Below are positions 30,299 to 62,321 of a stretch of 64,000 nucleotides of DNA, piece after piece. Below the pieces are notes generated by a model. That model was not told the DNA's origin. It searched no databases and saw only the letters and a list, made by a program, of their open reading frames with translations. The translations under genes were made by a program, and so were the position numbers. The stretch spans positions 449,355 through 513,354 of the forward strand of contig CBDEHK010000001.1 in NCBI GenBank assembly GCA_965238305.1. Reading direction: 5' to 3'. Every line of letters begins with the position of its first letter. Within the stretch, counting starts at the first letter, position 1. Source of the stretch: Alphaproteobacteria bacterium. GTDB taxonomy: Bacteria > Pseudomonadota > Alphaproteobacteria > GCA-2731375.

Positions 30299-30367
30299 GA
30301 CGCTCCTGCTCTCCCTCCGAAGCTTGGTCAATACCGCCGTGCGCGTCTCCTGACTTAGGCTCATGGG

Positions 30368-30545
30368 TCCCGAGGCCTTCCCAGCAGATTAATCTGCCAG
30401 TGGCTGTTTCCCGGTTCCTCGCCATTCACAGTTGCGGGGGCAGTGTTGGAATTTCCATGATTTTTACCTGGAGCACCAACTTCCGCGCCGCAGCGGTCCA
30501 GGAAACTAGCACGAGAGGCCGGGCCAGAGCAATCGTGCTGGACGG
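30368..30545 (-). ncRNA. Cobalamin (AdoCbl) riboswitch upstream of cobU-cobW-cobN-cobO-cobQ
   Basis: Minus-strand read: ...GGTGCTCCAGG...CCCGCAACTGTGAATGGCGAGGAACCGGGAAACAGCCACTGGCAGATTAATCTGCTGGGAAGGCC, containing the B12 box GCCACTG and the CCCGCAACTGT element. Confidence 0.8.
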
Positions 30546-30609: not shown

Positions 30610-31311
30610 ATGACTGCAATTCTGACCCTTGGTTTTCTCTTAGGTTTGCAACATGCGATGGAAGCCGATCATGTCGCCTCGGTTGCCAGCATCGTCGCCG
30701 GACAACGAAAACTCAGCCATATTGCCGCGCATGGCTTGTTCTGGGGCATCGGTCATGCCCTCACGCTGGCGGCTTTTGTCGGCACAATAATATTACTTCG
30801 TGGCGAATTGCCCGCCGGATTGACGCCGCTACTGGAAGCCGCGATTGGCGTCATCTTGATCGGCCTTGGCAGCTCCGTCCTCTATCGCTTGCATAAAGCG
30901 CGCATCCATTTCCACCTCCATCGCCATCGCGACGGCGCCGTGCACTTCCACGCCCATAGCCACAAAGGCGACAAACAACCGCATGATCTGAACCCGCATC
31001 ATCATGCCCATGCGCCAGCGCCGCGACGGCGGCGTAGTTTTATCATCGGGGTCATGCACGGCCTGGCCGGATCGGCGGCGGTCCTGGCCCTGGCCTTTCC
31101 GCAAGGCGGCTGGGCCGGCTTTGCTTTGGTGCTCTTGTTTTCGCTCGGCTCGATCATCGGCATGGTGGCGTTATCAGGCGTCATCGCGATGCCGCTTATC
31201 CTCAGCGGCCGGCTGGCGACCGGCCTGAACAATACCCTGCAAAGCGCCATCGGAGGGCTCAGCGTCGCCATCGGCGTTATCCACATCGTCAGCGTCTATC
31301 CCGAGCTGTGA
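30610..31311 (+). CDS. NicO/RcnA-family nickel-cobalt transporter with His-rich loop
   Basis: LQHAMEADHVASVASI (HX4DH-type NicO signature); His-rich loop HFHLHRHRDGAVHFHAHSHKGDKQPHDLNPHHHAHAP; 6 or more TM segments. Confidence 0.7.
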   Translation: MTAILTLGFLLGLQHAMEADHVASVASIVAGQRKLSHIAAHGLFWGIGHALTLAAFVGTIILLRGELPAGLTPLLEAAIGVILIGLGSSVLYRLHKARIHFHLHRHRDGAVHFHAHSHKGDKQPHDLNPHHHAHAPAPRRRRSFIIGVMHGLAGSAAVLALAFPQGGWAGFALVLLFSLGSIIGMVALSGVIAMPLILSGRLATGLNNTLQSAIGGLSVAIGVIHIVSVYPEL

Positions 31312-31584
31312 TTGAGCGGGTTTTCGGCCAAAATTTGCTGTTACGTTCAGAAGCAAACACTTCATCCACGACCGGACATTTGCAACATCTAGTTGTCCGG
31401 CCTTCGGACGGTAAACTGCGCCCCGTCATCGACGAACAACGGTAGGTAGTGTTTTCTAATTTAGCAACTTATTGTATTATAACAGTGCATATGAATAACC
31501 TTTAGTTGACAAATCTAATATATTTATGATTAGTAAATTTATATTCTATTAATCATTATTTTCTCGACGGAGTTTTTCACTGTA

Positions 31585-33387
31585 ATGTTGTATAAGTCGG
31601 GTAGCGAATTTCAAATCAATTCATTCGCCAGCAATAATCCAAATTCCGTCCGTCTTGCGGACCTTGATGACGGGACATTCGTTGCGGTTTGGCAGGGCAA
31701 CAGTGAAACCCAAGGCGACAGCTTTCCTTTGGACGTGTATGGCCAACGGTTCGACGCCGAGGGGAACAAAATCGGCGACGAATTTTTGGCCAATTCTACG
31801 ACAGGTGGTACCCAGTGGGTCCAGGACGTCACCGGCCTGGAAGGCGGTGGTTTCGTTGTCACTTGGCGTGATGGCAGCCCTGGTGATTCGGGTTGGTGGT
31901 CAGTTCGAGGTCAAATCTACGACTCAGACGGAAACCCTGTCGGTGGCGAGTTTGAAATACCAACCACCACAACGGACAATCAAAATCATCCTTCGGTCAC
32001 CAGCTTGGAAGACGGCGGCTTTGTTGCCGTTTGGAGCGACAGCAGCGCGACGGGCGATGACACATCTTTTGAGGCGGTTCGTGGCCAAGTGTTTGGCGCG
32101 AACGGCGCACCGGTCGGCGATGAGATATTGGTCAACACGACAACGAATGCGAGCCAATACGATGCAACTGTGCAAAGTCTGGAAGGCGGCGGTTTTGTTG
32201 TAGCTTGGGAAGACTATGGCGAGACCGGTGCAGACCTTTCCGGTCTTGCAATAAGAGCGCAATTGTTTGATTCGGCCGGAAACAAAGTTAATAGCGAATT
32301 TCTGGTCAACTCCTCAACTGAGGAACACCAATTCGATCCAGTTATCGGTGGCCTTCAGAACGGTGGGTTTGTTATCGTTTGGGTCGATGGAAGCGCTACA
32401 AACGGCGATTCCGATCATGCTATTCGCGGACAAATCTATGACGCAGACGGCGCGCCGGTAGACGGCGAGTTCTTAATCAATACTATAACCGCAGGAACGC
32501 AATCGGTCGCGTCGGTCATCGGTCTACAGAACGGCGGGTTTTTCGTCACATGGAACGACAGAAGCCTAAGTCCGGACGATCCGTCCGTAACCGCGATCCG
32601 CGGGCAGCTTTTTGACGCCAGCGGCGCGAAGTCCGGCGATGAGATTCTGGTCAATACCACGACCGACGGATGGCAGACGACATCTTCGATTACTCAATTG
32701 GAAAGCGGCGACATTGTTGTCGCCTGGAGTGATGGCAGTCAGTCCAGGGACACAATCCTTAATGGACAATTCTTTTCCTTTGATGATGGTGGTGGCACCG
32801 GCGGCGGTGGTGGCGGTGGCAGTGGTGGCCCGTCCCCGACCGGCTCCGCCGGCAATGACTTCATCGAAGGTGGTGAGTTCGGTGATGTGTTGGCGGGAAT
32901 GGCCGGGGATGACATTATATTCGGATTGGCTGGTACTGATATTATTTACGGCAACCAGGGCAGCGACATCATCTATGGCAACCAGGGCGAAGATGTCATC
33001 TTCGGTGGCCAGGGCAACGATATTGTCTTCGGCGGTCAGAACGCCGACGTCATCTATGGCAACCTTCAGAACGATGTAATTTACGGCAACATCGGCAATG
33101 ACGTTATCTACGGCAACCAGGGCGACGATGTAGTTTACGGCAACATCGGCAACGACGTGCTTTATGGCGGTCAGAACGATGACGTTTTATACGGTGGCCA
33201 GGATCAGGACACTCTATACGGCAACCTCGGCAACGATGTGCTGAATGGGAATTTGGGCAACGACATCCTGTACGGCGGCGCCGGCGTCAATACCATGATC
33301 GGCGGGCAAGGCGCGGACACCTTCTATGTCGATGGCGATGACGTGGTGCTTGATATGAGCGCGGAAGATACGCTGATATTTTTTTAG
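31585..33387 (+). CDS. RTX-type (haemolysin-type Ca-binding repeat) protein with N-terminal ~48-aa blade repeats (x8), probable T1SS substrate
   Basis: No signal peptide. About eight repeats of the pattern GGFVVxWxD...(A/S)(I/V)RGQ(I/L)FDxxGxxxGxEFLVNTTTxxxQ. A Gly-rich linker [17 protein letters not shown], then about 20 nonapeptide repeats GNQGxDVIYG. Confidence 0.75.
32930..33300 (+). repeat. Tandem 27-nt coding repeats (RTX nonapeptide units)
   Basis: Recurrent ggcaaccagggcgacgatgt(a/c)atttacggc-like units in the sequence. Confidence 0.6.
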
Positions 33388-33399
33388 TTACGCCTCAAA

Positions 33400-33528
33400 T
33401 GCTCAATCGGTGGGCGGCGGTTGTTGGAAGCCGCGAATGGTGCCATCCTGATCAGCCCTGGCGGCTCAATCCTCTATCGCTTGCATAAAAAGCGCATCCA
33501 TTTCCATCGTCGCCGTCTATCCCGAATT
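33400..33528 (+). pseudogene. Decayed fragment of the NicO-like transporter gene (internal deletion)
   Basis: About 85% nt identity to 30835-30925 of the NicO gene (LEAAxGxILIxxGxSxLYRLHKxRIHFH) joined directly to a copy of its 3' end (VYPE*); no complete ORF. Confidence 0.6.
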
Positions 33529-33565
33529 CTGATCTCGCCGTTTACCGGCGCTTGACCGCTTCCCT

Positions 33566-38847: not shown

Positions 38848-39318
38848 TTACCCCTCGTTTGCGATGCGCTCTATTGCGCGAATAATCCGTGGATAGGTGC
38901 CACATCGACAAAGGTTCGTAGTCATATGCTCCACAATCTCTTCGCGACTTGGATGGCTGTTTTTTGCCAGTAAATCTGCGGCACTCATAATTTGCCCCGA
39001 TTGACAATATCCGCATTGCGGTACCTTCTCCGAAAGCCACGCCTTTTGAACAGGATGACTGTAATCAGCTGACAAGCCCTCAATAGTTGTCACGGATTTA
39101 CCGCCTATTTCAGCGATACTTGTCTGACAAGAGAAGGTTCGATTCCCATCGACATGAACCATGCAGGCACCGCATAAGCCAGCGCCGCATCCAAACTTTG
39201 TGCCAGTCAGCCCTATATGTTCGCGGAGAGCCCACAGCAACGGTGTATCGGGATCGACAGAAAGGCTTGTTGATTTCTCGTTAAGGATAAAGGTAATTGG
39301 TTGATATGCTTCCTTCAT
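38848..39318 (-). CDS. (2Fe-2S)-binding small subunit of the molybdo-dehydrogenase (IorA-like)
   Basis: [23 protein letters not shown] and [12 protein letters not shown] motifs; start at MKEAYQ, preceded by an AGGGAAAAG RBS. Confidence 0.8.
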
Positions 39319-39450
39319 TTTCTTTTCCCTGATATTCGCGCAGTAATTTATGTTTCCGGCCACTTGACGGAAATCGCACCATAACTACTGGCCTAAAGAT
39401 AGGAAATCATCTAAAATTCATAATACTAATGATTAAAATCATATATAGGC

Positions 39451-40687: not shown

Positions 40688-40762
<75 letters not shown>

Positions 40763-57974: not shown

Positions 57975-58994
57975 ATGGAACGAGCGGACTGGTTAGCGCA
58001 GACAAGGGAAGAAATATTGGAGCCGGATTTGCCGATCTGCGATCCCCATCACCACCTTTGGGACTTTCCGAATTATCGTTATCTGCTAGATGAACTGCTG
58101 ACCGATACCAATAGCGGCCACAAAATCGTCAGCACGGTCTTTGTCGAATGCGGTGCTTTCTATCGTGCACAGGGCCCGGAGGACTTGGCGCCGGTTGGTG
58201 AAATTGAGGCGGTCAATGGTCAAGCGGCGATGGCGGCCAGCGGCCTCTATGGCGATACCAGGGCGTGTGCCGGTATTGTCGGTCATGCCAACCTGTTATT
58301 GGGCGACAAGGTACAGGACGTGTTGCAAGCACAAATTGCCGGCGGCGGCGCGCCCAGCCGCTTTCGCGGTATTCGCCATTCCGGCAGTTGGCATACGAGC
58401 GACGATATTCGCAATTCCCATTCAGGCGCGCCTGAACACATTTTCCTCGATGACACGTTCCGCCAGGGCTTTGCGCAGCTGGCGCCCCATAATCTCAGTT
58501 TTGAAGGTTGGCTCTATTTCAATCAAATTCCGGAACTGACCGAATTGGCGCGGGCGTTTCCGGAGACCACGATAATTTTCAATCACTTCGGCGGACCTTT
58601 AGGCATTGGCCCCTATGCCGGCAAGCGCGATGAGGTATTTGCGGCCTGGCGCGACAGTGTTGTCGAGCTGGCAAAATGCGAAAATGTTGTTGCCAAGCTG
58701 GGCGGCCTGGGCATGGCGATCTGCGGCTTTCAATTTCATAAACGTGACAGACCGCCAGGATCAGAAGAGCTGGCGCAGCATTGGGCACCTTACGTTCAAC
58801 ACGCCGTCGATTGTTTTGGCCCCGATCGCTGCATGTTCGAAAGCAACTTTCCGGTCGACAAAGTCTCCTGCAGTTATGCGGTTCTGTGGAACGCCTTCAA
58901 ACGCCTGGCCAGCGGCCATTCAGCGGGCGAAAAAACGGCGCTGTTCCACGATACTGCCAGCCGAATTTACCGGCTCGATTCGCAAGATAGTTAA
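57975..58994 (+). CDS. Amidohydrolase-2 family metal-dependent hydrolase (TIM barrel)
   Basis: ICDPHHHLWDF N-terminal metal-binding motif; start at MERADW after a GGGGAG RBS. Confidence 0.7.
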   Translation: MERADWLAQTREEILEPDLPICDPHHHLWDFPNYRYLLDELLTDTNSGHKIVSTVFVECGAFYRAQGPEDLAPVGEIEAVNGQAAMAASGLYGDTRACAGIVGHANLLLGDKVQDVLQAQIAGGGAPSRFRGIRHSGSWHTSDDIRNSHSGAPEHIFLDDTFRQGFAQLAPHNLSFEGWLYFNQIPELTELARAFPETTIIFNHFGGPLGIGPYAGKRDEVFAAWRDSVVELAKCENVVAKLGGLGMAICGFQFHKRDRPPGSEELAQHWAPYVQHAVDCFGPDRCMFESNFPVDKVSCSYAVLWNAFKRLASGHSAGEKTALFHDTASRIYRLDSQDS

Positions 58995-59113
58995 AATTGT
59001 TGATAAAATAAAATCGCATATTTCTTAACATTAAGGGAAAATTAAGTAGCAGCTGGCAATTCTGTTTGTGTTGAAACGTATTATCCAACAATTTATTACT
59101 AGGAACACATTTT

Positions 59114-61600: not shown

Positions 61601-62029
61601 CTATTTTGTTACCAGACCCTTAAAAGATTTGGCCGCGATCTGTTTAAACACGTCCTTGCCCTGCTGAATTTGATTGTTATAGACCAAATTCCAATCGGTC
61701 GTGATCGCGCCGTTAGCATAAAAACCGGTCCAGCCTGTAATCGACATACAATTGGCTTGGGCGTTGTTCCAATTGACGCTCCACGAGATCAGGTTGGCAT
61801 AGACATATCCAACCGCATCATAGGCGATATTCTGGCAACCTGTGTTCGGCGCCCGGTTTACGTAACTGCCCGTCAACTCGCCAGTTGGCGAAATCGTATT
61901 GATGGTGAAAGTCGATCCATATTGGTTCTGCCAAGCCGATAACCCAGCCAGCTGGCTTTCCTCGCTCTGAGCGGTATAGCTAAAGAAAGCCAATGTGAAC
62001 GTCAGGATCAAACTCAAAATATGTTTCAT
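61601..62029 (-). CDS. Avidin-family biotin-binding protein (rhizavidin/hoefavidin-like), secreted
   Basis: Signal peptide MKHILSLILTFTLAFFSYTAQS; mature SAWQNQYGSTFTINTISPTGELTGSYVNRAPNTGCQNIAYDAVGYVYANLISWSVNWNNAQANCMSITGWTGFYA...TDWNLVY...QGKDVF. This matches the avidin/streptavidin beta-barrel signature (WxNQxGST, GxYxNR, SWxVxWxN, TGWTG, WNL) and the Cys pair of rhizavidin; GAGGAAA RBS. Confidence 0.85.
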   Translation of the reverse strand: MKHILSLILTFTLAFFSYTAQSEESQLAGLSAWQNQYGSTFTINTISPTGELTGSYVNRAPNTGCQNIAYDAVGYVYANLISWSVNWNNAQANCMSITGWTGFYANGAITTDWNLVYNNQIQQGKDVFKQIAAKSFKGLVTK

Positions 62030-62321
62030 TGTATTAGTTTCCTCAAATTTTAAGTTGTTTTATTGAACAAAATCAGAACCCAAAACAGAGATACAGACGT
62101 ATATTATTCTACATAAAGTAATTGAATGCACGTATTTTTATTATTTAAATACGGTTTATAATTTCCGTTTAAATTCGCGCAAGTCTAATTATATGACATG
62201 TAGATCCGGCCCCAACGCTGATCGTCGGGAAATTCTGAACGAAATAAAAACAGCCTGCGAAATTCTCGCCGCTTATTTTCATCAACTTGTCATGGGGGTC
62301 GTTTTCTATGTCAGGGTTAGC

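What the first reader, a model, noticed from the sequence alone, without database searches (positions are those of the whole stretch)
31320..33387. Orphan RTX protein with eight ~48-aa propeller-like blade repeats behind an AT-rich promoter island
The 600-aa protein has no signal peptide. It has about eight internally homologous units, GGFVVxWxD ... AIRGQxFDxxGxxxGxEFLVNTTTxxxQ; a regular 48-50 aa period suggests a beta-propeller. A poly-Gly linker and about 20 haemolysin-type nonapeptide repeats follow, so it is a putative Ca-binding T1SS substrate. No T1SS ABC/MFP/OMF genes are nearby. The 150 nt upstream (31440-31590) are extremely AT-rich, unlike the flanking cob genes. The protein ends abruptly, DTLIFF*, within what looks like the post-RTX DxxxDF region, just 13 nt before a decayed NicO gene fragment. 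The C-terminal secretion signal may therefore be truncated.
Basis: seen in the sequence. Interest (0 to 1): 0.6.

Follow-up and report, generated by a model that had tools for sequence, protein, structure and literature searches.

The report
Complete propeller-RTX exoprotein, not truncated
This gene encodes an intact calcium-binding RTX protein that is probably secreted. Its front half is a seven-bladed propeller of a very common but unstudied family, and its oddly short ending is the normal, conserved ending of a small RTX subfamily rather than a truncation.

Summary
The 600-aa ORF (31585-33387, +) is real. Its N-terminal 400 residues are seven repeats of 56-58 aa, not eight of 48. AlphaFold2 models them as a seven-bladed beta-propeller (pLDDT 93). 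The nearest solved fold is the CylK propeller, but no sequence similarity to it is detectable. No Pfam or NCBIfam model covers the domain, although 28,371 cluster representatives match it, many of them giant multi-propeller proteins.

A Gly-rich linker, 18 in-register RTX nonapeptides and a 19-residue tail follow. The AT-rich upstream island, the absence of T1SS genes in the 64 kb window and the decayed NicO piece after the stop codon are all confirmed.

The truncation idea is not supported. Seven other proteins share this RTX module at 56-66% identity. They carry two or more other kinds of N-terminal region, including a metzincin protease, and come from several sources. All end in the same alignment column (plus or minus 2 aa), with the consensus [28 protein letters not shown]. 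The propeller keeps 73 of 79 family-conserved positions. A paralogue that appears to lie on the same chromosome differs mainly at non-conserved sites.

Best reading: a complete Ca-dependent exoprotein, probably exported by an unlinked T1SS through a compact C-terminal signal, with a multivalent binding propeller as passenger. It is an ordinary member of a known kind.

The parts
31430..31584 (+). AT-rich intergenic island upstream of the gene, presumed to be the promoter and regulatory region. GGAG lies 12 nt before the ATG, and a perfect TTGACA hexamer lies at about 31506.
   Evidence: GC is 0.25-0.33 in 150-nt windows against a window mean of 0.554. The consensus sigma-70 scan found no full promoter here. 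Short-tail RTX relatives in the nearest related MAG also have AT-rich upstream regions (GC 0.37-0.42 against 0.60-0.63). Promoter function is inferred, not shown.
31585..33387 (+). Complete ORF for a 600-aa propeller-RTX protein, stop codon included.
   Evidence: It keeps 73 of 79 family-conserved columns; the homologue mean is 72.7. Its codon usage is typical of the window.
31603..32784 (+). Seven-bladed beta-propeller passenger domain. The seven 56-58-aa repeats span residues 7-400, with blade starts at residues 7, 65, 121, 179, 237, 294 and 352. Repeat consensus: xEFLVNTTTxxxQxxPxxTxLxxGGFVVxWxDxSxxGxDxSxxAIRAQxFxAxGxxxG.
   Evidence: Repeat statistics are. The AF2 model has pLDDT 93 and pTM 0.93, with 3-4 strands called per blade. 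The Foldseek top hit is CylK 7FH6, with TM-score (query-normalised) 0.76. Neither Pfam, NCBIfam nor PDB sequences match. 28,371 cluster representatives match at E <= 1e-3.
32785..32841 (+). Gly-rich flexible linker, residues 401-419 ([19 protein letters not shown]).
   Evidence: Read from the sequence. pLDDT is below 50 for residues 402-414 in the full-length model. The propeller-family homologues printed that have a serralysin-type C-terminus lack this linker.
32842..33327 (+). RTX beta-roll: 18 nonapeptides in strict register, residues 420-581.
   Evidence: Pfam PF00353, E = 3e-49. Register is shown. The model has 18 short strands at 9-residue spacing with pLDDT 90-97. Relative to subfamily relatives there is an 18-residue (two-unit) insertion.
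33328..33384 (+). Conserved short C-terminal tail, residues 582-600 ([19 protein letters not shown]). It is proposed to be a compact T1SS signal or beta-roll cap.
   Evidence: Seven other proteins end in the same column plus or minus 2 aa, with the consensus [21 protein letters not shown]. The final strand (residues 596-599) is modelled with pLDDT about 92. The secretion role is inferred.
33388..33549 (+). Decayed NicO remnant in two pieces, which marks the downstream edge of the inserted RTX cassette. The first piece corresponds to NicO codons ~63-103. The second corresponds to the last ~9 codons plus the stop and about 18 nt of 3' flank.
   Evidence: tblastn places it at 33388-33516 (60% identity, E = 1e-8). 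The direct repeats are D5 (33425-33506, 87%) and D6 (33505-33549, 73%).
30610..31311 (+). Intact NicO-type Ni/Co transporter gene, the native neighbour of the cob operon. It marks the upstream edge of the cassette.
   Evidence: Homologues carry PF03824. The arrangement cobQ-cobO-cobN-cobW-cobU next to a divergently transcribed NicO is conserved in L047. No RTX gene follows NicO in L046, and L047 and L048 end too close to NicO to tell.

Best explanation
The gene encodes a complete, functional RTX exoprotein made of three modules.

(1) Passenger domain. This is an N-terminal seven-bladed beta-propeller built from 58-aa blades. It belongs to a very large, uncurated family found mostly in alphaproteobacterial 'calcium-binding proteins' and in giant multi-propeller proteins. 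Every family-conserved residue recurs at the same position in each blade, so the propeller most likely acts as a symmetric, possibly Ca-stabilised, multivalent binding module (lectin- or adhesin-like) and not as a single-site enzyme.

(2) Linker. A flexible Gly-rich stretch.

(3) Export module. This is a portable unit of 18 RTX nonapeptides plus a conserved tail of about 19 residues that ends in acidic residues followed by hydrophobic ones (EDTLIFF).

Proposed mechanism. The protein stays unfolded in the low-Ca cytoplasm. An unlinked type I secretion system recognises the compact C-terminus. The beta-roll, and probably the propeller, then fold on meeting extracellular Ca2+.

What is shown: the domain anatomy, the fold prediction, the conservation of the end position, and the integrity of the propeller.

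What is inferred: secretion by a T1SS, Ca-dependent folding, and the binding function.

The gene with its AT-rich upstream region is a lineage-specific cassette lodged between the native NicO gene and a decayed second NicO copy. The close paralogue shows that it has been duplicated or gene-converted.
For: Anatomy:
-.

Fold:
-.

The gene is complete, not truncated:
- Alignment A4 shows eight proteins collinear to a common end.
- The short-tail relatives are the best-scoring hits of a search with residues 420-600: P0391, P0392, P0393, P0394, P0397 and P0400, with 51-60% identity and 98-99% coverage.
- One more relative is a metzincin/serralysin-type protease with the same tail: L051, with PF00413, part of PF08548, and PF00353. 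Serralysins are classical T1SS substrates (established knowledge).

Functional constraint:
- 73 of 79 family-conserved columns are kept.
- Differences from the paralogue avoid conserved positions: 5 of 49 against 27 of 95, one-sided Fisher p = 0.009.

Blade-periodic conservation only:
- Every column conserved at >=90% maps to the same blade positions.

Adhesin-like family context:
- The top representatives are proteins of 1-8 kaa with up to 22 matched stretches.
- Cadherin and Ig-like Pfam domains occur in homologues.

Unlinked T1SS is the norm:
-. Rhizobial RTX substrates such as NodO use a T1SS that also exports other, separately encoded proteins (PMC3034196).

Insertion:
-.

Paralogue:
-.
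Against: - No experiment shows secretion, and the rest of the genome could not be inspected for a T1SS.
- Only 19 residues follow the last repeat, against the ~60-residue signal described for RTX proteins (PMC3034196). 21 of 22 RTX relatives in genome contigs run 41-97 aa (or, in multi-domain proteins, much more) past the aligned end. The short tail is therefore unusual and its signal function is unproven.
- The nearest solved structures include enzymes (CylK, PL42 lyase, sialidases) as well as lectins (PLL2, PLL4), so an enzymatic role is not excluded.
- Ca binding by the propeller loops is a guess from Asp/Ser-rich loop motifs and the analogy with CylK. Model coordinates could not be analysed.
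- Several short-tail relatives come from one MAG (ERZ25072999). The number of independent lineages is therefore about four or five, not seven.
Confidence: 0.68

Rival explanations
1. Truncated relic. A rearrangement against the NicO copy removed the last ~50-70 codons, so the protein has lost its T1SS signal and is non-secreted or on its way to becoming a pseudogene.
For: - 21 of 22 RTX relatives from genome contigs continue 41-97 aa (or, in multi-domain proteins, much more) past the position aligned with the last residue.
- The propeller-family consensus has about 65-70 more residues (D.IDLS ... GDG.AD ... DFIL).
- NicO-like sequence starts at the first codon after the stop.
- The only same-length homologue first found, P0001, appears to be a paralogue on the same chromosome and so is not independent.
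Against: - Seven other proteins, with two or more other kinds of N-terminal region, end at the same column with a conserved tail motif despite 34-44% divergence.
- The propeller shows no decay.
- Paralogue differences avoid conserved sites.
- No remnant of a longer C-terminus exists in any frame of the 178 nt before the next gene.
Confidence: 0.07
2. An enzyme that is not secreted, or is secreted by another route. Like CylK, the propeller and beta-roll would together form a Ca-dependent catalytic unit (for example a lyase, hydrolase or alkyl-transferase acting on a polysaccharide or small molecule). The short tail would then be only a beta-roll cap and not a secretion signal.
For: - The best PDB match is CylK, with TM-score (query-normalised) 0.76. 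Next come a PL42 rhamnose-glucuronate lyase and sialidases.
- CylK also combines a seven-bladed propeller with an RTX-like roll and needs Ca2+ (PMC8916777).
- The canonical ~60-aa signal is absent.
Against: - The domain order is reversed.
- The two domains are joined by a disordered Gly linker (pLDDT below 50) and do not form a packed interface.
- No sequence similarity to CylK is detectable at E <= 10.
- Conservation is purely blade-periodic, with no asymmetric residue constellation.
- An 18-turn canonical beta-roll is typical of exported proteins that fold in mM Ca2+ (PMC3034196).
- One short-tail relative is a serralysin-type protease, a classic T1SS cargo.
Confidence: 0.15
3. A recently acquired foreign cassette that is silenced. 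On this reading the AT-rich island reflects horizontal acquisition and repression by a nucleoid-associated protein, and is not an ordinary promoter.
For: - The gene is absent next to NicO in the one related contig that extends past NicO (L046).
- It is flanked by NicO and a NicO remnant.
- The upstream GC of 0.25 is the lowest in the window together with one other island.
Against: - GC, GC3 and codon usage of the coding region are typical of the window.
- The nearest related MAG carries three related short-tail RTX genes, so the module is native to the lineage.
- Three other intergenic islands in the window are similarly AT-rich.
Confidence: 0.1

Closest known systems
RTX exoproteins secreted by type I secretion systems, such as the serralysin/PrtA-type proteases and NodO (Linhartova et al. 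2010, PMC3034196)
   Same: It has tandem GGxGxDxUx nonapeptides that form a beta-roll C-terminal to a passenger domain. It has no Sec signal. Its extreme C-terminus is acidic then hydrophobic. The secretion genes can be encoded elsewhere in the genome.
   Different: Only about 19 residues follow the last repeat, against a ~60-residue signal. There is no Peptidase_M10_C-type terminal domain. The passenger is an uncharacterised propeller. Secretion has not been shown.
CylK / BrtB, the cyanobacterial Ca-dependent alkylating enzymes (PDB 7FH6, 7RON; PMC8916777)
   Same: Its propeller is the closest solved fold to this one (TM-score, query-normalised, 0.76; RMSD 3.8 A). It also combines a seven-bladed propeller with an RTX-like Ca-binding beta-roll.
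   Different: The domain order is reversed. The Foldseek alignment shows 15% identity and HMMER detects no similarity. A flexible linker replaces the packed catalytic interface. No halogenase or resorcinol-pathway genes are nearby. Conservation is blade-periodic and not focused on an active site.
Seven-bladed propeller lectins (Photorhabdus PLL2 and PLL4; tachylectin-like)
   Same: They are seven-fold pseudo-symmetric propellers with repeated motifs in every blade, which is the functional model proposed here. The Foldseek TM-score (query-normalised) is 0.56-0.57.
   Different: No sequence similarity is detectable, the blades are longer (58 aa), and no binding-site residues have been mapped.
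Uncurated '58-aa blade' propeller family of alphaproteobacterial calcium-binding proteins and giant RTX-type proteins
   Same: The window protein is a typical member: 40-49% identity to many 550-700-aa propeller-RTX proteins, and 73 of 79 conserved columns kept.
   Different: Most single-propeller members carry a serralysin-type long C-terminus (PF08548) joined directly to the propeller. This one has a Gly linker and the short-tail RTX module.

Membership tests
RTX protein / T1SS substrate | Tandem Ca-binding nonapeptide repeats (GGxGxDxUx) | tested here: met
   PF00353 at E = 3e-49. There are 18 units in strict register at residues 420-581, and they are modelled as a beta-roll.
RTX protein / T1SS substrate | No cleavable N-terminal Sec signal | tested here: met
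   The N-terminus [14 protein letters not shown] has no hydrophobic segment, and blade 1 starts at residue 7 as in homologues. No dedicated signal-peptide predictor was available.
RTX protein / T1SS substrate | Uncleaved C-terminal secretion signal of about 60 residues after the repeats | tested here: not met
   Only 19 residues follow the last nonapeptide. The canonical length is taken from PMC3034196. A conserved short tail is present in its place, and its signal function is untested.
RTX protein / T1SS substrate | Cognate ABC transporter, membrane fusion protein and outer-membrane factor | not testable with these tools
   None was found among the ORFs scanned in the 64 kb window.
CylK/BrtB alkylating enzymes | N-terminal Ca-binding beta-roll packed on the top face of a C-terminal propeller | tested here: not met
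   The order is reversed (propeller at the N-terminus, roll at the C-terminus), and the two are joined by a disordered linker.
CylK/BrtB alkylating enzymes | Sequence homology (more than 24% identity to CylK or BrtB, as used in PMC8916777) | tested here: not met
   No CylK hit at E <= 10 with either the domain or a blade profile. The Foldseek alignment shows 15% identity.
CylK/BrtB alkylating enzymes | Catalytic Arg105 and Tyr473 and a partner CylC halogenase | not tested
   No residue-level superposition was possible, and no halogenase-like gene was seen among the window ORFs scanned.
Seven-bladed beta-propeller fold | Seven four-stranded antiparallel blades around a central axis | tested here: met
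   AF2 gives pLDDT 93 and pTM 0.93, with strands in seven groups of 3-4. The top 50 PDB matches listed are almost all propellers. This is a prediction, not a solved structure.
Short-tail RTX export-module subfamily (defined here) | YGN/YGGQ-type repeats ending in [28 protein letters not shown] at the C-terminus | tested here: met
   Alignment A4 shows 56-66% identity and a common end column plus or minus 2 aa in 8 proteins.
Serralysin C-terminal domain (Pfam PF08548, Peptidase_M10_C) | A match to the PF08548 profile after the repeats | tested here: not met
   There is no PF08548 hit even at E <= 1, although many propeller-family homologues carry it.

The most novel reading that the evidence does not exclude
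The conserved ~19-28-residue ending ([21 protein letters not shown]) would be a minimal, portable type I secretion signal about one third the canonical length. It would be used in one alphaproteobacterial lineage to export unrelated passengers: a propeller, a metzincin and other, uncharacterised N-terminal regions. The 58-aa-blade propeller, a family of more than 28,000 clusters with no curated model, would be a new class of Ca-dependent extracellular lectin or adhesin module.
Probability: 0.35. Interest if true: 0.5.

Novelty: new member of a known kind. Interest (0 to 1): 0.3.

Why it matters
For this locus, the main value is corrective. The gene should be annotated as an intact propeller-RTX exoprotein, not as a truncated pseudogene.

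Two by-products may interest specialists:
- An abundant beta-propeller repeat family (28,371 representatives at E <= 1e-3) has no Pfam or NCBIfam model and no solved structure. Its nearest solved fold is CylK.
- A small RTX subfamily has a C-terminus only about 19 residues past the last repeat. If secretion is confirmed, this would define an unusually compact T1SS signal that could be useful as an export tag.

Tried and rejected
- Exact look-ups of the window protein, of P0001 and of NicO in the contig index failed. The paralogue's neighbourhood and the genome's T1SS genes therefore could not be examined.
- The genome-contig scan did not contain this genome.
- An exact degenerate DNA pattern for the gene's 3' end found nothing in metagenomes.
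- A single-blade profile found no relative in PDB sequences or in Pfam.
- Up to I favoured truncation, because 21 of 22 RTX relatives from genome contigs extend well beyond the aligned end. That view was dropped once L051 and the search revealed the short-tail subfamily.
- MAFFT's global alignment placed 'DTLIFF' on the extreme C-terminal DFIL motif of long-tailed homologues, with a ~70-column gap. I treat this as an alignment ambiguity, not as evidence for an internal deletion.
- I tested whether NicO homology extends upstream into the last RTX codons. Identity there is only 40-47%, so the result is inconclusive.
- Composition-based evidence for foreign origin was negative.
- The consensus sigma-70 scan gave no more sites than shuffled sequence.
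Full report
**Observation**

The window holds an ATG-initiated ORF at 31585..33387 (+) encoding 600 aa that end in DTLIFF*. The N-terminal 400 residues are internally repetitive. Anchoring on the E[FI]xxN motif gives seven units starting at residues 7, 65, 121, 179, 237, 294 and 352. Six are 56-58 aa long; the last is 49 aa. Mean pairwise identity between units is 41%. The BLOSUM62 autocorrelation peaks at offset 58 (0.90), against a maximum of -0.27 in 200 shuffles.

Residues 401-419 are a Gly-rich linker. Residues 420-581 are 18 nonapeptides in perfect 9-residue register (Pfam PF00353, E = 3e-49). Nineteen residues follow them.

The 150 nt before the start codon have GC 0.25-0.33, against 0.554 for the window. 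Three other intergenic islands in the window are comparably AT-rich. The coding region has ordinary GC, GC3 and codon usage.

**Surroundings**

Upstream lie cobQ, cobN, cobW and cobU on the minus strand, with a cobalamin riboswitch at 30345-30484 (-). An intact NicO-type transporter gene lies at 30610-31311 (+). The arrangement of cobU next to a divergently transcribed NicO is conserved in a related contig, L047. In L046, the one related contig that extends past NicO, no RTX gene follows it.

A decayed NicO copy starts directly after the RTX stop codon. tblastn places it at 33388-33516 (NicO residues 63-105, 60% identity, E = 1e-8). At the DNA level, 33425-33506 is 87% identical to NicO nt 224-305. 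The stretch 33505-33549 is 73% identical to the NicO stop codon and its flanks. The gene and its AT-rich leader are therefore a lineage-specific cassette lodged between the native NicO and a second, destroyed NicO copy.

None of the window ORFs scanned is a T1SS ABC, MFP or OMF protein. The four ORFs of 570 aa or more, other than the RTX gene and CobN, are CbiG/methylase, an MCP, a MoCo-binding protein and CHASE2-SpoIIE.

**The N-terminal domain**

No Pfam or NCBIfam model matches it, and PDB sequences give nothing either with the domain or with a single-blade profile. It is nevertheless very common. A word-indexed search returned more than 1,600 relatives, mostly alphaproteobacterial 'calcium-binding proteins' of 550-700 aa with PF00353 and often PF08548. 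An exhaustive phmmer run over 1.84 billion cluster representatives found 28,371 hits at E <= 1e-3 and 8,704 at E <= 1e-30. The top hits are giant proteins of 1-8 kaa with up to 22 matched stretches.

With a 121-sequence alignment, AlphaFold2 gives an all-beta model (pLDDT 93, pTM 0.93) whose strands fall into seven groups of three to four. In Foldseek against the PDB, the best match is the propeller of the Friedel-Crafts alkylase CylK (7FH6; TM-score normalised by query length 0.76, RMSD 3.8 A, 15% identity). Behind it come a PL42 rhamnose-glucuronate lyase, sialidases, NHL domains and the Photorhabdus PLL lectins, all with TM-scores of 0.62 or less.

CylK also joins a seven-bladed propeller to an RTX-like roll and has Ca sites bridging its blades (PMC8916777). 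It differs in three ways:
- Its roll is N-terminal and packed onto the propeller to form the active site.
- Membership of the CylK family was defined by more than 24% identity and both domains in that order.
- Here the order is reversed, the linker is disordered (pLDDT below 50 for residues 402-414), and no sequence similarity is detectable.

This protein is therefore not a CylK-family member. CylK is only the nearest solved fold.

All columns conserved at 90% or more across 121 homologues fall on the same blade positions: E, N, Q, L, G, F, W, D, Q, G, G. No asymmetric residue cluster is present that would suggest a single active site. Together with the family's occurrence in giant multi-propeller, cadherin- and Ig-containing proteins, this favours a symmetric, multivalent binding role. 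That remains an inference.

**The C-terminus**

At first the truncation hypothesis looked good. In 21 of 22 RTX relatives from genome contigs, the ORF continues 41-97 aa (or, in multi-domain proteins, much more) beyond the position aligned with the last residue of this protein. The propeller-family consensus has a further ~65-70 residues of serralysin-type terminal domain. The only same-ending homologue, P0001 (597 aa), sits on a contig of exactly the same length (4,897,822 bp) as the window's own proteins. It therefore appears to be a paralogue on the same chromosome and is not independent evidence.

A metagenome scan then turned up L051. It carries a complete 469-aa metzincin-RTX ORF (PF00413, part of PF08548, and PF00353) that ends ...GGSGADTFYLDADDIILDLGEDDEVIWLVG*.

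A search with residues 420-600 of the window protein placed six further proteins among its ten best hits. They are P0391, P0392, P0393, P0394, P0397 and P0400, of 250-273 aa, with 51-60% identity and 98-99% coverage. All end ...FYVDGDD[VI][VI]LD..x[ED]D..[VI]..[LIF].

In alignment A4 the eight proteins are collinear at 56-66% identity, and their C-termini fall in the same column plus or minus two residues. They carry at least three kinds of N-terminal region (propeller, metzincin, and one or more unassigned regions). They come from the window genome, from one related MAG (ERZ25072999, which also holds the closest NicO relative) and from several other assemblies.

An accidental truncation would not be kept at the same residue through this much divergence and domain shuffling. 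The short tail is therefore the natural end of a portable RTX export module.

**Further signs of function**

- The propeller keeps 73 of the 79 columns that are at least 85% conserved in the family. The homologue mean is 72.7 with SD 4.9.
- The paralogue differs at 32 positions, all within residues 20-163. These avoid conserved columns: 5 of 49 conserved positions differ against 27 of 95 others (one-sided Fisher p = 0.009).
- Residues 164-600 are identical between the two copies except for four residues in one nonapeptide. This indicates a recent duplication or gene conversion.

**Mechanism (inferred)**

The protein has no Sec signal. It has a long canonical beta-roll, which is expected to be disordered at cytoplasmic Ca concentrations, and an acidic-then-hydrophobic extreme C-terminus. 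That ending is the hallmark of serralysin-type T1SS cargo (my own knowledge of Ghigo and Wandersman's PrtG work; general description in PMC3034196).

One short-tail relative is itself a serralysin-type protease. I therefore propose export through an unlinked T1SS followed by Ca-driven folding outside the cell. Unlinked secretion genes appear to be the norm for this family, because none of the four inspected homologue neighbourhoods has an adjacent T1SS.

The tail is only a third of the canonical ~60 residues. Whether it suffices as a signal is the main open point.

**Verdict**

This is a real and correctly delimited gene, and an ordinary member of the RTX exoprotein class. Its passenger is an abundant but uncharacterised propeller. 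Its short C-terminal module is unusual but conserved. It is not truncated and not distinctively 'orphan'. Interest is modest.

Noticed in passing
window 30345-30484 (-): A cobalamin riboswitch (RF00174, 79 bits) lies at the 5' end of the cobU-cobW-cobN operon. It sits in the divergent intergenic region shared with NicO.
   Followed up: partly
not in window (protein P0001, same 4,897,822-bp contig): A 597-aa paralogue of the RTX protein appears to lie elsewhere on the same chromosome. It is identical over residues 164-600 except for one nonapeptide, and it differs at 32 positions plus a 3-aa indel in blades 1-3. The pattern suggests a gene-conversion tract or diversification of the first blades.
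   Followed up: partly
window 33085-33138 (residues ~501-518): The window protein has two extra nonapeptides (18 aa) compared with its short-tail relatives. The only C-terminal differences between the two paralogues fall in this same stretch, which suggests repeat expansion or intragenic recombination.
   Followed up: no
L068 7965-10807; L069 10001-10804 (MAG sample ERZ25072999): The nearest related MAG carries at least three small (266-268 aa) short-tail RTX proteins. P0392, P0393, P0394, P0397 and P0400 align over an unannotated N-terminal region of about 110 aa. Two of the MAG genes flank a 351-aa protein with no Pfam hit. One lies next to an IS630-type transposase. Their upstream regions are also AT-rich.
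   Followed up: partly
window 39270-39400, 58930-59030, 61950-62140: Three further AT-rich intergenic islands have 150-nt GC values down to 0.24-0.35, comparable to the one upstream of the RTX gene.
   Followed up: no
window 31372-31400: A hairpin (CCGGACA...TGTCCGG) lies 60 nt after the NicO stop codon. It may be the NicO terminator. It has no T-run, and the terminator scan did not call it.
   Followed up: no
window 30610-31311: The NicO-like protein gave no Pfam hit at E <= 1e-5 in a direct scan, although most of its homologues carry a precomputed PF03824 (NicO) assignment, some of them marked weak. Its closest relative is only 65% identical, so the genome appears to be phylogenetically isolated in the databases.
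   Followed up: partly
L050 1-7668: A propeller-RTX homologue (P0060) sits directly beside a prophage-like block with an integrase, SSB, ParB and a cI-type repressor. This suggests that some family members travel with mobile elements.
   Followed up: no
window 40691-40762 (-): A tRNA gene (RF00005, 74 bits).
   Followed up: no
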